Origin: a virus
Lineage: Duplodnaviria > Heunggongvirae > Uroviricota > Caudoviricetes
Virus record (IMG/VR): IMGVR_UViG_3300014970_000063
DNA length: 3,997 bases
Strand: one strand, 5' to 3'
In this document: positions 1 to 2,682 of the stretch, piece by piece
Layout: each line of letters opens with the position of its first letter
How positions within the stretch are numbered: the first letter of the stretch is position 1
Notes under the pieces: generated by a model
The model's database searches: none
Seen by the model: only the letters and a program-made list of their open reading frames with translations
What the model was told of the DNA's origin: nothing
Program-made: the position numbers and the translations under genes

Positions 1-288
1 GCTATGGCTGCGCATTCGGGCCACCAGCAGAGGTGGCATTGCTTTTTCGATAGCTGGTAACAACGCCTGAATTTTTTTAACCGCATCAGGGGTGTCTTTC
101 TCCACCCAGCGGAAAATTTTCTGAGTATTGCGAGCCAGGGCTTCCGGATGGCTGTCGTCATACAGTTCCGGGAACGTCATTCCCAGCTCGAAATACGCTT
201 TGGTAATTTTCGCAGCCGGTACTTTTTCGCCGTCCGGATGCGCCCAGGCATTCATCGCCATGCGGATGTGTTCATGCTTGATTTTCAT
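1..288 (-). CDS. CII-like / YdaT-family prophage regulatory protein, partial (first 96 codons; 3' end lies beyond the window start)
   Basis: Minus-strand ATG at 288-286 opens a frame with no stop down to position 1, translating MKIKHEHIRMAMNAWAHPDGEKVPAAKITKAYFELGMTFPELYDDSHPEALARNTQKIFRWVEKDTPDAVKKIQALLPAIEKAMPPLLVARMRSHS. Its start overlaps the upstream Cro-like stop as ATGA (translational coupling). The N-terminus matches my recollection of Rac YdaT (MKIKHEHI...), and the position directly after a Cro-like gene is that of lambda cII / Rac ydaT. The plus-strand track ORFs 128..316 and 148..396 are its shadows. Confidence 0.7.
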   Translation of the reverse strand, partial: MKIKHEHIRMAMNAWAHPDGEKVPAAKITKAYFELGMTFPELYDDSHPEALARNTQKIFRWVEKDTPDAVKKIQALLPAIEKAMPPLLVARMRSHS

Positions 289-539
289 GAATCAACTCCC
301 ATCAGCTTTTTCGTAGTAGTTTTATTCCTGCCAATAGTTAAAATTGCATCGGCAGAAAATAATCCGTTTGATGCAAGAGCGATTTTTTCAGCGTAATTTG
401 TTTCGCCGGTATATTCTGTGCGAGGCAATTTTCCGTTATCCATCCATTTATAGATTGCTCTTTGGCTGACACCACAAACGTCGGCCACAACAGCAACGCG
501 AACGGTTTTGATTACATCTTCAAGTGTTTTCTGGTTCAT
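285..539 (-). CDS. Cro/YdaS/DicC-like small HTH regulator, 84 aa
   Basis: Internal Met 25 of track ORF 285..611(-) is preceded by a strong SD (minus strand GTGAGGGTGAT then ATG, plus coordinates 540-550). The product MNQKTLEDVIKTVRVAVVADVCGVSQRAIYKWMDNGKLPRTEYTGETNYAEKIALASNGLFSADAIL... has a helix-turn-helix and a P...TGET...IA pattern resembling DicC/YdaS-type Cro proteins. It is divergent from the repressor gene. The 24 codons upstream of Met 25 lie inside the promoter region and are taken as non-coding read-through. Confidence 0.8.
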   Translation of the reverse strand: MNQKTLEDVIKTVRVAVVADVCGVSQRAIYKWMDNGKLPRTEYTGETNYAEKIALASNGLFSADAILTIGRNKTTTKKLMGVDS

Positions 540-618
540 ATCACCCTCACAATGTGAACTTTGAGTACATGCTATAACAGAACTGACAGTACATTCAAGA
601 GCGAATATCATTGAACTT
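540..618. promoter_or_regulatory. Divergent promoter/operator region between the Cro-like and repressor genes (OR-like)
   Basis: 79-bp AT-rich intergenic region. It holds two copies of the 13-mer ACTnnnAGTACAT (558-570 and 582-594, cores 24 bp apart). Candidate rightward promoter: -35 CTGACA 583-588, 17-bp spacer, -10 TATCAT 606-611, with ATG at 619. Alternative rightward extended -10 TGcTATAAC 570-578. Candidate leftward promoter on the minus strand: -35 TTGAAT (plus 593-598) and extended -10 TGtTATAGC (plus 571-579). All promoter calls are by eye. Confidence 0.5.
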
Positions 619-1038
619 ATGGTTCATGAAGATAAAGCGCGTAAAGAGTTCGCCAGTAGGCTTGCGCTAGCCTGTGAAAACGCTGGTTATGAACAACATG
701 GAAGGCAGGCAGAAATTGCCCGTCGAATGAAATTAACACCAAAAGCGGTTAGCAAATGGTTTAATGGCGAAACAATTCCTCGCCGGGAGAAATTAAGGGA
801 ATTAGCAACACTAATAGGAACAACACCAACCTATCTTTTGGGAGAGGATACAGAAGAAAGTGGACAGGTACGTTTCTATCAGGAGTTAAATCCAAGACAA
901 AAAATCATCATTGACCTTCTGGACGAGCTCCCTGACAGTGAGACAGATGAACTTTTAAAAACTCTTGAAGAGAAAAAACAGAAGTACAATGCAATTTACG
1001 AAGAGTTAGCACGAAAGAAAAAACAAAAAGCCTCTTAA
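619..1038 (+). CDS. DicA/RacR-like XRE-family HTH repressor (prophage immunity repressor), 139 aa
   Basis: Contains a classic XRE helix-turn-helix (RQAEIARRMKLTPKAVSKWFNGETIPRREKLRELATLIGTTPTYLLGED). The C-terminal domain LNPRQKIIIDLLDELPDSETDELLKTLEEKKQKYNAIYEELARKKKQ parallels the DicA C-terminus as I recall it (LSPKELELLELFNALPESEQDTQLAEMRARVKNFNKLFEELLKARQ). No S24 peptidase domain is present. There is no SD before the ATG, which would fit a leaderless or near-leaderless mRNA. Confidence 0.85.
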   Translation: MVHEDKARKEFASRLALACENAGYEQHGRQAEIARRMKLTPKAVSKWFNGETIPRREKLRELATLIGTTPTYLLGEDTEESGQVRFYQELNPRQKIIIDLLDELPDSETDELLKTLEEKKQKYNAIYEELARKKKQKAS

Positions 1039-1335: not shown

Positions 1336-1491
1336 ATGGATACTATCGATCTTGGCAACAGCGAATCTCCGGTATGTGGCGTGTTCCCCAACCAGGACGG
1401 TACGTTCACCGCGATGACGTATACCAAAAGCAAAACGTTTAAAACCGAAAATGGTGCCCGTCGCTGGCTGGAAAGAAACTCAGGTGAGTGA
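1336..1491 (+). CDS. Small prophage protein, 51 aa, YdfA/YdaF-like by size and position
   Basis: ATG at 1336 is preceded by SD GAGG (1327-1330) at 5-nt spacing. Product MDTIDLGNSESPVCGVFPNQDGTFTAMTYTKSKTFKTENGARRWLERNSGE. A 51-aa first gene after the repressor matches Qin ydfA / Rac ydaF in my recollection (lengths recalled, not checked). The upstream in-frame ATG at 1255 (78-aa version) has rare AGG/GGA codons that read better as the SD itself. The stop overlaps the next start (TGAtATG). Confidence 0.6.
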   Translation: MDTIDLGNSESPVCGVFPNQDGTFTAMTYTKSKTFKTENGARRWLERNSGE

Positions 1492-1492
1492 T

Positions 1493-2068
1493 ATGGATTT
1501 CGACACAATCATGGAAAAGGCTTACGAAGAATACTTCGAAGGTCTTGCCGAAGGCGAAGAAGCTCTCAGCTTCAGTGAGTTTAAACAGGCACTCAGAATA
1601 AGAATGTGCTCTCACAATGACGCGGAGCACAAATATGAGAAGCAAAATCAGACCGCAGAAAATTTTGTTCTGGAACCCGGAGAAACGCTTTTCAAAATTC
1701 CCGTTACGTGCCCCATTTGCGGTTTTACATCAGAAGAACTTGACGACTCCTGTAACAATCAGGAAACAACCAAGTATGTCGAAGATGATACCGAGTGCGC
1801 ACTAAGAACGATTATATCCACGAGTCCAAACTCCAGGACCAATAAATCTCACTTTGAGAGGGTGATTAATCCACTCCCCCAAACCAATAAAAAAGATGCC
1901 GGAGGACAAAAAACCCAATGGAACAACGGGATATCTGTCAAAAAAAGACGTTCCATTAAAGACAAACAACGCAGCGCCAACAACTGTAAGCGCTTTATAC
2001 CAGCAATCAATTTTCATGTTCTTAAGCGGATTTATTGGTGGTTGCGACATTGCTTAATGAATCCTTAA
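1493..2068 (+). CDS. Hypothetical protein, 191 aa; acidic N-terminal half with a Cys cluster; 3' half of uncertain coding status
   Basis: ATG at 1493 with SD AGGTGA 7 nt upstream, tightly coupled to the preceding ORF. Codons 1-103 (1493-1801) have G at first codon position in 39 of 103 codons (coding-like) and carry CPICG...DDSC...DTEC. Codons 104-191 (1802-2065) drop to 12 of 88 G at first position, are K/N/Q/R-rich and use rare codons (AGA, AGG, ATA, CTA, CGA). No stop occurs before TAA at 2066-2068. Confidence 0.5.
   Translation: MDFDTIMEKAYEEYFEGLAEGEEALSFSEFKQALRIRMCSHNDAEHKYEKQNQTAENFVLEPGETLFKIPVTCPICGFTSEELDDSCNNQETTKYVEDDTECALRTIISTSPNSRTNKSHFERVINPLPQTNKKDAGGQKTQWNNGISVKKRRSIKDKQRSANNCKRFIPAINFHVLKRIYWWLRHCLMNP
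1802..2050 (-). CDS. Candidate small two-transmembrane-segment membrane protein, 82 aa (or 71 aa from the ATG at 2017); may instead be a shadow ORF
   Basis: The minus-strand ORF is exactly codon-aligned antisense to the 3' half of ORF 1493..2068. Its translation has two hydrophobic segments (WYKALTVVGAALFVFNGTSFF and VVPLGFLSSGIFFIGLGEWI) and G at first codon position in 22 of 82 codons. An AAGGA SD lies 11 nt upstream of the ATG at 2050, inside the inverted repeat 2061-2089. This is a position-analogous ORF to Rac sieB, which I recall as being on the opposite strand; no homology is claimed. Confidence 0.3.
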   Translation of the reverse strand: MSQPPINPLKNMKIDCWYKALTVVGAALFVFNGTSFFDRYPVVPLGFLSSGIFFIGLGEWINHPLKVRFIGPGVWTRGYNRS

Positions 2069-2089
2069 AACTGTGGTGATTTTAAGGAT
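2061..2089. repeat. Perfect 10-bp inverted repeat ATCCTTAAAA-N9-TTTTAAGGAT
   Basis: Read directly from the sequence. It covers the stop codon (2066-2068) of the plus ORF and, on the minus strand, the SD of ORF 1802..2050. No U-tract follows on either strand, so it is not a classical intrinsic terminator. Confidence 0.6.
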
Positions 2090-2129
2090 ACCACCTCGCC
2101 TGACGTGGTTAAAAGCAGGCACACAACAC

Positions 2130-2327: not shown

Positions 2328-2385
2328 TTTCTGGTGACGTTTGGCGGTATCAGTTTTACTCCGTGACTGCTCTGCCGCCGTTTTT
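2328..2385 (+). ncRNA. dicF: DicF-like small RNA (prophage-encoded ftsZ antisense sRNA family), about 53 nt plus U-tail
   Basis: TTTCTGGTGACGTTTGGCGGTATCAGTTTTACTCCGTGACTGCTCTGCCGCC(G)TTTTT matches my recollection of E. coli Qin DicF almost base for base, including the GGCGG/CCGCC terminator stem. The genomic context (DicA-like repressor, then YdfA-like ORF, then this sRNA) matches the Qin dicB operon order as recalled. Not confirmed by any search. Confidence 0.7.
2343..2385 (+). terminator. Rho-independent terminator (3' end of the DicF-like sRNA)
   Basis: Stem GGCGGTA (2343-2349) pairs with TGCCGCC (2373-2379), with an inner CAGT/ACTG helix (2351-2354 with 2366-2369), followed by G and TTTTT (2381-2385). 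Confidence 0.65.
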
Positions 2386-2454: not shown

Positions 2455-2682
2455 ATGGGTGGATTCTCTGTATCCGAAGAGCAGTTAATTGCGCTGAAAG
2501 GAATAAAAAAAGGTACGTTAAAAAAGGTCCGGGAAAAATCGTTTATGGAAGGAAGGGAATATAAGCATGTCGCTCATGACGGTATGCCATGGGATAACAG
2601 TCCATGCTTTTACAACCTGGAAGAAATTGATCGCTGGATTGAGCGCCAGGCATCAGCAAGACCAAGACGTCATCTTACTTGA
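2455..2682 (+). CDS. xis: Excisionase-like protein (lambda Xis-type), 75 aa from the ATG at 2455; the maximal ORF starts at 2410 (90 aa)
   Basis: Sits immediately upstream of and co-oriented with the integrase gene. The core KGTLKKVREKSFMEGREYKHVAHDG resembles the lambda Xis region SLETVRRWVRECRIFPPPVKDGREYLFHES as recalled (shared GREY motif). Neither candidate start has a good SD. The ATG at 2410 lies inside tandem repeats that may be promoter elements, so 2455 is preferred. Confidence 0.6.
   Translation: MGGFSVSEEQLIALKGIKKGTLKKVREKSFMEGREYKHVAHDGMPWDNSPCFYNLEEIDRWIERQASARPRRHLT

What the first reader, a model, noticed from the sequence alone, without database searches (positions are those of the whole stretch)
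1493..2068. 191-aa ORF changes character at about 1800 and is shadowed by a codon-aligned antisense membrane-protein ORF
The first 103 codons look like real coding sequence (38% G at first codon position, acidic, Cys cluster). The last 88 codons look like the antisense of a hydrophobic gene (14% G at first position, K/N/Q/R-rich, many AGA/AGG/ATA/CTA/CGA), yet no stop separates them. The minus-strand ORF 1802..2050 ends exactly where the change occurs and encodes two clean hydrophobic helices. Either the plus gene carries an unusual basic tail, or a stop or frameshift has been lost and the real 3' gene is a small opposite-strand membrane protein (superinfection-exclusion, Kil or toxin-like). 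Neither product is one I recognise.
Basis: partly seen in the sequence, partly recalled or inferred. Interest (0 to 1): 0.6.

Follow-up and report, generated by a model that had tools for sequence, protein, structure and literature searches.

The report
Membrane gene with conserved antisense ORF
A prophage cassette found in about 15% of complete E. coli genomes carries an undescribed small membrane-protein gene on the minus strand (knocked out by a stop codon in this window), and relatives have kept the opposite strand free of stop codons across the whole gene, so this is probably a genuine antisense overlapping gene pair.

Summary
The plus ORF 1493..2068 has 38% G at first codon positions in codons 1-103 and 14% in codons 104-191. 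It is exactly codon-aligned with minus ORF 1802..2050.

The minus ORF is a real gene. It belongs to an undescribed family of about 106-aa, three-helix membrane proteins (motifs DYWYK and GLGEWINHP; dN/dS 0.09-0.23; AlphaFold pLDDT 91). No match was found in Pfam, NCBIfam, PHROGs or PADLOC. The intact gene spans 1730..2050. The window allele carries a rare TAG at codon 83 (1802-1804) and a Y16C change, which is why the ORF "ends at 1800".

The plus ORF is a mosaic of three parts:
- 34 codons of ydfB (1493-1594);
- a cassette-encoded head with an IPxxCPxCGF peptide that shows a clear plus-frame coding signature (1595-1729);
- a read-through of the antisense of the membrane gene (1730-2068).

The tail's amino-acid sequence is unconstrained (dN/dS 0.6-1.7). 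Yet 11 diverged lineages, down to about 40% identity of the membrane protein, have no TTA, CTA or TCA codon (0 of 134 Leu, 0 of 62 Ser). Outgroup relatives have 5-17 antisense stops.

Most likely the antisense ORF is translated and selected to stay open. Why it is kept open is inferred, not shown.

The parts
1493..1594 (+). N-terminal 34 codons of ydfB. This is backbone of the dicBF (early-left) operon and supplies the start codon and ribosome-binding site of the 191-codon plus ORF.
   Evidence: 96% identical to K-12 ydfB up to window 1593, where homology stops. PGAP annotates exactly this stretch as a ydfB pseudogene fragment. phrog_2061 matches residues 1-34, E 3e-21.
1594..2110 (.). Mosaic cassette that replaces the ydfB 3' end and ydfC of K-12-type Qin prophages.
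   Evidence: Homology with K-12 and phage Tritos covers 1298-1593 and 2111-2476 only. The cassette is present in 806 of 5426 complete E. coli genomes, nearly all at 99% identity or more, and is mostly unannotated.
1595..1729 (+). Plus-only coding head of the cassette ORF. It ends with the peptide IPVTCPICGF (1697-1726).
   Evidence: In 10 lineages the residues I, P, C, P, C, G and F are invariant while their codons vary synonymously. Third positions vary in 10 of 12 codons, against 4 for first and 3 for second positions. The same CPxCG head sits directly before the overlap in environmental relatives L239 and L246.
1730..2050 (-). Gene for a 106-aa three-helix membrane protein of an undescribed family. 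In this window it is a nonsense allele: TAG at 1802-1804 (codon 83) plus Y16C at 2003-2005.
   Evidence: Intact 106-aa homologues exist. The family has 601 hits and about 370 clusters at 50% identity. dN/dS is 0.09-0.23 with saturated dS. AlphaFold2 gives pLDDT 91.4, with helices 14-32, 42-62 and 85-105 and a hairpin at 66-78. The window's two changes are found only in the window among 55 distinct sequences.
1730..2068 (+). Read-through tail of the plus ORF. It is codon-aligned antisense to the membrane gene plus 6 further codons. It is kept open, but its sequence is unconstrained.
   Evidence: No antisense stops in 11 lineages, against 5-17 in outgroups. Plus-frame dN/dS is 0.6-1.7. AlphaFold2 pLDDT is below 50 for residues 39-176 and 181-191, from a shallow alignment.
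2085..2121 (.). Conserved 37-nt element immediately upstream of the minus gene. On the minus strand it reads ...TTAACC-16 nt-TGGTATCCT. It is a candidate extended -10 promoter for the minus-strand gene; this is inference only.
   Evidence: Conserved in E. coli, L016 and Yersinia loci. The same element flanks the upstream side of the minus-strand ECs_2282 and sieB cassettes. The consensus promoter scan did not reach its threshold here.

Best explanation
Window 1594-2110 is a mobile cassette sitting in the early-left (dicBF, pL-type) operon of a Qin/DicA-type lambdoid prophage. It occupies the slot that holds sieB or ECs_2282 in sister prophages.

Its main gene is on the minus strand (1730..2050). 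It encodes a 106-aa inner-membrane protein with three helices and a beta-hairpin, from a widespread undescribed family. It is presumably expressed from its own promoter in the lysogen, as other accessory ('moron') genes oriented against the lytic operons are. In this window the gene is broken (S83* and Y16C).

On the plus strand an ORF enters the cassette in frame from the ydfB start. It first encodes a short head with a conserved zinc-knuckle-like peptide (P-x-G-...-CPxCG). It then continues, codon for codon, through the antisense of the whole membrane gene and stops 6 codons beyond it.

Shown:
- the membrane gene is under strong purifying selection;
- the head is coding in the plus frame;
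- the antisense frame has been kept free of stops across a subfamily that has diverged to about 40% identity.

Inferred: ribosomes translate the whole plus ORF, and selection acts on uninterrupted translation rather than on the tail's sequence. The most likely reason is that translation shields the long antisense transcript from Rho-dependent termination. That transcript could then cross the membrane gene, silence it on induction, and reach the downstream genes (dicF onwards).

The confidence of 0.6 is for the whole package. By part, I put the real but truncated minus gene at about 0.95, a plus ORF that is translated and selected to stay open at about 0.7, and the Rho-shield mechanism at about 0.3.
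For: The minus gene is real:
- 106-aa homologues in Yersinia, Edwardsiella, Shewanella, Marinobacter, Desulfobacteraceae and others, with 10 invariant residues over 112 sequences.
- dN/dS 0.09-0.23; differences at minus codon positions 1, 2 and 3 are, for example, 11, 7 and 35.
- A confident fold.
- Constant synteny: convergent with the cI-type repressor.

The plus head is coding: synonymous third-position variation over IPxxCPxCGF, and the head recurs in distant clades.

The frame is kept open:
- 0 of 134 Leu codons are TTA or CTA and 0 of 62 Ser codons are TCA in 11 open lineages. In Edwardsiella plus outgroups the figures are 89 of 195 and 24 of 82.
- Given each protein sequence and the codon usage of flanking genes, about 4 stops are expected per gene. 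The chance of none is 0.002-0.04 per enterobacterial lineage and about 0.002-0.09 per environmental lineage (my arithmetic).
- Only 4.5% of 106-codon windows in flanking phage genes are stop-free in this frame.
- dS between lineages is saturated, so they are close to independent trials.
- A neighbour-joining tree places all open lineages in one subfamily.

The start is supplied in frame in two independent mosaic contexts: the ydfB ATG in the window and the ydfA ATG in L020, L104 and L105.

The plus-strand RNA over the overlap is C-rich relative to G (C/G 1.23). This is weakly compatible with Rho loading if the RNA were untranslated.
Against: - There are no expression data of any kind.
- The tail shows no amino-acid constraint (plus-frame dN/dS 0.6-1.7; Gly GGN third positions vary freely) and no confident fold.
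- A few natural E. coli alleles carry a plus-frame stop with an intact minus gene (L090, L119, L121/L122). Interruption is therefore tolerated at least briefly.
- In Edwardsiella the plus ORF ends right after CPICGFTSE, and the antisense frame has 8 stops.
- The sieB cassette in the same slot has no open plus frame across it, so protection from Rho is not a general rule for this operon.
- L240 and L243 keep the frame open without the CPxCG head.
- The lineages are not fully independent, and the tree rests on about 100 residues.
Confidence: 0.6

Rival explanations
1. The tail is a chance shadow ORF. Only the minus membrane gene, and perhaps the short CPxCG head, matter. The open antisense frame is an accident of codon usage inherited from a common ancestor.
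For: The codon-aligned antisense frame is the one most often open by chance; 4.5% of windows in flanking genes are open. Tail dN/dS is about 1. Alleles with plus-frame stops exist. In Edwardsiella the ORF stops right after the head.
Against: Synonymous sites are saturated between lineages (dS 0.7 to above 3), so inheritance cannot preserve openness. All 11 lineages lack TTA, CTA and TCA, while relatives use them for 46% of Leu and 29% of Ser codons. The per-lineage chance is 0.002-0.09.
Confidence: 0.15
2. Both products are sequence-specific functional proteins, a classic dual-coding pair. The basic K/N/R-rich tail would be a working domain, for example binding nucleic acid, attached to a zinc knuckle.
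For: Conserved head. The ORF length is fairly constant at about 135-165 aa when counted from the nearest Met (my reading of the ORF translations). The antisense of the conserved minus motifs gives conserved plus peptides such as FIPVINFH.
Against: The tail evolves as expected for the antisense of a constrained gene. Synonymous rates in the minus gene are not lowered. There is no preference among Gly GGN codons. AlphaFold2 pLDDT is below 50. No family matches.
Confidence: 0.15
3. TTA, CTA and TCA are avoided for a reason that lies in the minus mRNA itself, such as dependence on rare tRNAs or a nuclease site. On this view the plus frame is not translated through the overlap.
For: All three codons end in A after a pyrimidine. 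Avoidance is complete.
Against: Other rare or A-ending codons are used freely in the same genes (ATA, AGA, CGA, CCA, ACA, GCA). Leu is encoded mostly by CTT, CTC and TTG rather than CTG, so this is not the bias of highly expressed genes. The avoidance coincides with the subfamily that has the plus-strand head.
Confidence: 0.08
4. The 191-aa plus protein is the only real gene and the minus ORF is its shadow.
For: PGAP and a phage submitter sometimes annotate the plus ORF (WP_000344958, phage HannyBb, phrog_35040).
Against: The minus protein has hundreds of homologues whose antisense frame is closed by 5-17 stops. Minus-frame dN/dS is 0.09-0.23, against 0.6-1.7 for the plus frame. The minus protein has a confident fold.
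Confidence: 0.01

Closest known systems
Antisense overlapping gene pairs in bacteria (EHEC ano, asa and others; Pseudomonas aeruginosa olg1/olg2; PMC5960689, PMC6294744, PMC9927249, PMC8850804)
   Same: A long ORF embedded antisense to an established gene on the same stretch of DNA. The case for it rests on the ORF staying open, and the antisense partner has no homologues with a known function.
   Different: According to their abstracts, those cases rest mainly on RNA-seq and Ribo-seq, and the P. aeruginosa ORFs are described as evolutionarily novel. Here there are no expression data. Instead the ORF stays open across lineages down to about 40% identity of the partner protein. The ORF covers the partner gene completely and extends beyond both ends, and its non-overlapping head is separately conserved. 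The overlapping part shows no amino-acid constraint.
Prophage accessory ('moron') genes oriented against the early or lytic operons, such as sieB in the same slot of sister prophages
   Same: Same position between the cI-type repressor and the early-left genes, on the opposite strand. Both are small membrane proteins. Antisense orientation to the lytic genes is described as characteristic of prophage accessory loci (PMC7067206).
   Different: No sequence or profile similarity to SieB (hhalign probability 0.3%; no Pfam hit). The sieB cassette has no open plus frame across it. The function of this protein is unknown.
YdfB of the K-12 Qin prophage dicBF operon
   Same: The first 34 codons, the start codon, and the tight spacing after ydfA (ydfA stop 1489-1491, ATG at 1493) are the same.
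   Different: K-12 YdfB is 42 aa and ends 8 codons after the joint. Here the 3' end is replaced, giving a 191-codon chimera. PGAP usually flags it as a truncated ydfB.
Type I toxin-antitoxin loci (a small hydrophobic protein controlled by a cis-antisense RNA); comparison from general knowledge
   Same: A small membrane protein gene fully covered by a transcript from the opposite strand.
   Different: The protein has 106 aa and a three-helix fold, rather than a single-helix peptide of under 60 aa. The antisense partner carries a long, conserved-open ORF. Toxicity and RNA pairing control are untested.

Membership tests
DYWYK / GLGEWINHP small membrane protein family (undescribed; defined here) | About 100-110 aa with invariant W17, Y18, E59, W60, N62, H63, P64, R81, G87 and G94 | tested here: met
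   The window's reading frame 1730..2050 aligns over its full length at 98-99% identity to P0004 and P0001. The invariant columns come from 112 sequences. The window allele itself has Y16C in the nearly invariant DYWYK and a stop at codon 83.
DYWYK / GLGEWINHP small membrane protein family (undescribed; defined here) | Three hydrophobic helices with a beta-hairpin between helices 2 and 3 | tested here: met
   AlphaFold2 on 112 sequences: pLDDT 91.4, pTM 0.76, helices 14-32, 42-62 and 85-105, strands 66-71 and 74-78. The truncated window product would lack helix 3.
SieB (superinfection exclusion protein B) | Sequence or profile similarity to SieB | tested here: not met
   No Pfam, NCBIfam or PHROG hit. 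hhalign of the family profile against the SieB of the sister prophage gives probability 0.3%.
SieB (superinfection exclusion protein B) | Minus-strand position between the repressor and the early-left genes | tested here: met
   Same slot as sieB in E. coli FDAARGOS_1283.
Antisense overlapping gene pair | Two long ORFs on opposite strands of the same DNA, both kept open in diverged relatives | tested here: met
   A 321-nt overlap. The antisense frame is stop-free in 11 lineages with saturated dS.
Antisense overlapping gene pair | Purifying selection on both products | tested here: inconclusive
   Minus frame: dN/dS 0.09-0.23. Plus frame: clear constraint in the non-overlapping head, but dN/dS 0.6-1.7 within the overlap. 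In the overlap only stop avoidance is detectable.
Antisense overlapping gene pair | Both strands transcribed and translated | not testable with these tools
   No expression data were available. A sigma-70-like promoter at 1129-1157 lies upstream of the plus ORF. No consensus promoter was found for the minus gene.
YdfB | Full-length similarity to the 42-aa K-12 protein | tested here: not met
   Only residues 1-34 match. PGAP marks it 'incomplete; missing C-terminus'.
Lar-like restriction alleviation / zinc-ribbon proteins | Significant profile match and two CxxC pairs | tested here: not met
   phrog_6422 gives E 0.075 for one relative only. Pfam RUBY_RBDX gives E 0.13. Only one CPxCG is conserved, and the other Cys and His positions vary between lineages.
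Known anti-phage defence proteins (PADLOC) | Match to a PADLOC model | tested here: not met
   No hit for four family members. The plus ORF has only a chance-level hit, E 0.03.

The most novel reading that the evidence does not exclude
The membrane-protein gene and the CPxCG-headed ORF that covers it in antisense form an ancient, mobile two-gene module. Ribosome transit along a sequence-unconstrained antisense ORF is itself the selected function: it makes the antisense transcript resistant to Rho, so that it can switch the membrane protein off, or carry transcription across it. That would be a translation-dependent antisense switch, a mode of control not described for prophage accessory genes or toxin-antitoxin loci.
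Probability: 0.25. Interest if true: 0.8.

Novelty: new variant of a known kind. Interest (0 to 1): 0.66.

Why it matters
Long antisense overlapping genes in bacteria are still disputed. Most candidates rest on expression data from one strain and have little evolutionary depth. This locus supplies the opposite kind of evidence. The antisense ORF has stayed open across deep divergence. A natural control is available, because Edwardsiella and the outgroup relatives have the frame closed. The ORF also has a separately conserved, non-overlapping head.

The cassette sits in 806 of 5426 complete E. coli genomes and is usually left unannotated or called a ydfB pseudogene. A widespread membrane-protein family and its partner ORF are therefore missing from annotation.

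The case is directly testable, because single changes that are silent in the minus gene (TTG to TTA) close the plus frame. It also bears on expression of the dicBF operon (DicF sRNA and the DicB division inhibitor) downstream.

Tried and rejected
- Family libraries. Pfam, NCBIfam, PHROGs and PADLOC gave nothing for the minus protein. For the plus ORF they gave only phrog_35040 (the same ORF as called in phages) and phrog_2061 (the ydfB head).
- SieB homology: rejected.
- Edwardsiella plus-strand protein (107-117 aa): no relatives among phage records by tblastn and no Pfam hit.
- Protection from Rho as a general rule for antisense cassettes in this operon: not supported, since the sieB cassette has no open plus frame.
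- Population data from 55 distinct close E. coli sequences: too few changes to separate the frames (7 minus-synonymous against 4 plus-synonymous).
- Promoter and terminator scan: no consensus promoter for the minus gene, and only a weak minus-strand hairpin at 1553-1534.
- Gene neighbourhoods of distant family members: no constant partner gene.
- Viral-contig scan with the Yersinia protein: nothing found.

Full report
**Context**

The window is the immunity and early-left region of a Qin/DicA-type lambdoid prophage of E. coli. Its features are:
- a cro/dicC-like gene (285..542, minus strand);
- a dicA-like repressor (619..1038);
- a sigma-70-like promoter at 1129-1157;
- ydfA (1336..1491, DUF1391);
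- the ORF in question (1493..2068);
- DicF sRNA (2329-2380, Rfam 72.5 bits);
- an excisionase (DUF1233);
- an integrase.

The window is identical to the prophage of strain ET896 except for a 1073-bp deletion.

**Observation**

G at first codon positions is 0.38 in codons 1-103 and 0.14 in codons 104-191. There is an acidic-to-basic shift. The second part has 9 rare Arg, Ile and Leu codons. The plus ORF is exactly codon-aligned with minus ORF 1802..2050.

**The minus ORF is a real gene, but truncated here**

Homologues of the 82-aa product are 105-110 aa long. They read on past the window's stop...GYNRS-S-CALGIIFDILGCFLIVTGVVKFF. The window has CTA at 1802-1804 where relatives have CGA, which gives TAG instead of TCG on the minus strand. 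It also has Y16C in the nearly invariant DYWYK motif. Among 55 distinct close sequences, both changes are found only in the window. The intact gene is 1730..2050.

The family is large and undescribed:
- 601 hits in the protein database and about 370 clusters at 50% identity.
- Members occur in Yersinia, Edwardsiella, Shewanella, Marinobacter, Salinimonas, Desulfobacteraceae, Polyangia, Pseudomonas and Herminiimonas.
- Ten residues are invariant over 112 sequences.
- No model exists in Pfam, NCBIfam, PHROGs or PADLOC.

AlphaFold2 gives a confident model (pLDDT 91.4): three helices plus a beta-hairpin. Fold searches returned nothing specific. Between lineages the minus frame has dN/dS 0.09-0.23 with saturated dS.

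In enterobacterial prophages the gene always lies convergent with the cI-type repressor, on the strand opposite the early-left operon. That is the slot holding sieB or the ECs_2282 zinc-binding protein in sister prophages. It is not related to SieB.

**The plus ORF is a three-part mosaic**

1. Codons 1-34 (1493-1594) are ydfB. Homology with K-12 ends at 1593 and resumes at 2111. PGAP therefore usually calls a ydfB pseudogene fragment and leaves the rest unannotated. It sometimes annotates the 191-aa ORF instead.

2. Codons 35-79 (1595-1729) belong to the cassette but lie outside the minus gene. They end in IPVTCPICGF. Across 10 lineages the residues I, P, C, P, C, G and F never change, while their codons vary synonymously. 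Third positions vary in 10 of 12 codons, against 4 for first and 3 for second positions. This stretch is therefore coding in the plus frame.

3. Codons 80-191 read the antisense of the membrane gene and stop 6 codons beyond it.

In other lineages the same ORF starts from the ydfA ATG (L020, L104, L105) or from its own ATG (L016, Yersinia, L195). In L104 and L105 it even runs on in frame into ydfC.

**Is the tail more than a shadow?**

Its amino-acid sequence is not constrained. Plus-frame dN/dS is 1.3-1.7 for close pairs and 0.6-0.8 for distant pairs. Third positions of the minus gene change freely. AlphaFold2 finds no fold (pLDDT 43, from a shallow alignment).

The frame itself, however, is kept open. 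In this frame a stop arises only from the sense codons TTA, CTA or TCA.
- Eleven lineages have none. They are the E. coli type, L020, L105, L016, Yersinia, L195, and an environmental clade comprising L239, L240, L243, L245 and L246. Their membrane proteins are down to about 40% identical. The totals are 0 of 134 Leu and 0 of 62 Ser codons.
- Edwardsiella and 12 outgroup relatives use these codons for 89 of 195 Leu and 24 of 82 Ser. They carry 5-17 antisense stops each.
- Given each protein sequence and the codon usage of the flanking genes, about 4 stops are expected per gene. The chance of none is 0.002-0.04 per enterobacterial lineage and about 0.002-0.09 per environmental lineage (my arithmetic from the usage).
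- Empirically, only 4.5% of 106-codon windows in flanking phage genes are stop-free in this frame.
- Synonymous sites are saturated between lineages, so openness cannot simply be inherited.
- The Leu codons used are CTT, CTC and TTG rather than CTG. Other rare A-ending codons are used freely. Expression-level codon bias is therefore not the cause.

**The head is old**

L239 (IPPGFKFTPLHVKCPRCGCDLS) and L246 (LPIGWKFVPNYTHCPSCGAHL) carry a CPxCG head directly before the overlap. It resembles the heads in Edwardsiella (LPLGWDLIKIPVICPICGFTS) and E. coli (EPGETLFKIPVTCPICGFTS).

A neighbour-joining tree places all open lineages in one subfamily of the membrane-protein family. Three departures from the pattern appear within it:
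- Edwardsiella keeps the head, but its ORF ends at ...GFTSE*, with only a 9-nt tail-to-tail overlap.
- L248 has 9 antisense stops.
- L240 and L243 have lost the head but keep the frame open.

**Interpretation**

The best reading is an antisense overlapping pair that arose once and has been maintained. The membrane protein is conventionally constrained. The partner ORF is selected for a short head and for uninterrupted translation through the overlap.

I propose that translation protects the long antisense transcript from Rho. That transcript could then cross, and perhaps silence, the membrane gene and reach dicF and the downstream genes. This step is inference. The plus-strand RNA is only mildly C-rich over G. 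The sieB cassette in the same slot lacks such an ORF. A few natural alleles tolerate plus-frame stops.

In this particular window the minus gene is dead and the plus ORF is intact.

**Comparison with known systems**

The closest known category is that of bacterial antisense overlapping genes: EHEC ano and asa and others, and the P. aeruginosa long overlapping genes (PMC5960689, PMC6294744, PMC9927249, PMC8850804). The differences are the deep conservation of openness, complete coverage of the partner gene, a conserved non-overlapping head, and the absence of any expression evidence here. The antisense orientation of accessory genes relative to prophage lytic genes is described in PMC7067206.

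Noticed in passing
window 2085-2121 (also L005 2010-2046 and L004 from about 2516): A 37-nt element (GGATACCACCTCGCCTGACGTGGTTAAAAGCAGGCAC) lies just upstream of three unrelated minus-strand cassette genes: this membrane gene, ECs_2282 and sieB. It is conserved as far as Yersinia. It contains a CCAC...GTGG hairpin, and on the minus strand a TGGTATCCT sequence resembling an extended -10. It could be a shared promoter, a recombination linker or an RNA element.
   Followed up: partly
window 2470-2476: The window equals the prophage of E. coli ET896 minus 1073 bp (dicB, a ydfD remnant and an exonuclease remnant). The deletion joins at a 7-bp microhomology. DicF is now followed directly by the excisionase, which has acquired a hybrid N-terminus (MGGFSV...).
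   Followed up: partly
window 564, 588, 1114, 1148: The heptamer AGTACAT (or its complement) occurs twice between the divergent cro-like and dicA-like genes and twice around the early-left promoter (1129-1157). These look like repressor operator half-sites at both control regions.
   Followed up: no
L005 1641..1997 (+) over 1776..1982 (-): In the sister prophage that carries the minus-strand ECs_2282 zinc-binding gene, a 118-codon plus-strand ORF also spans that gene completely. This may be coincidence, or the same phenomenon in another cassette.
   Followed up: no
L104 1752-2231 and L105 1217-1695: A PaaA2-ParE toxin-antitoxin pair is inserted between the repressor and the CPxCG-headed ORF in some relatives. 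In Edwardsiella (L103) the membrane gene lies among AbiH and DUF2971 genes. The slot seems to collect defence or addiction cargo.
   Followed up: no
window 2329-2380: DicF sRNA, a full-length Rfam match (72.5 bits), lies 260 nt downstream of the plus ORF stop.
   Followed up: yes
L104 2501-3238 and L105 1890-2705: In these relatives the plus ORF continues in frame through the conserved 37-nt element into ydfC, giving called proteins of 245-271 aa.
   Followed up: partly
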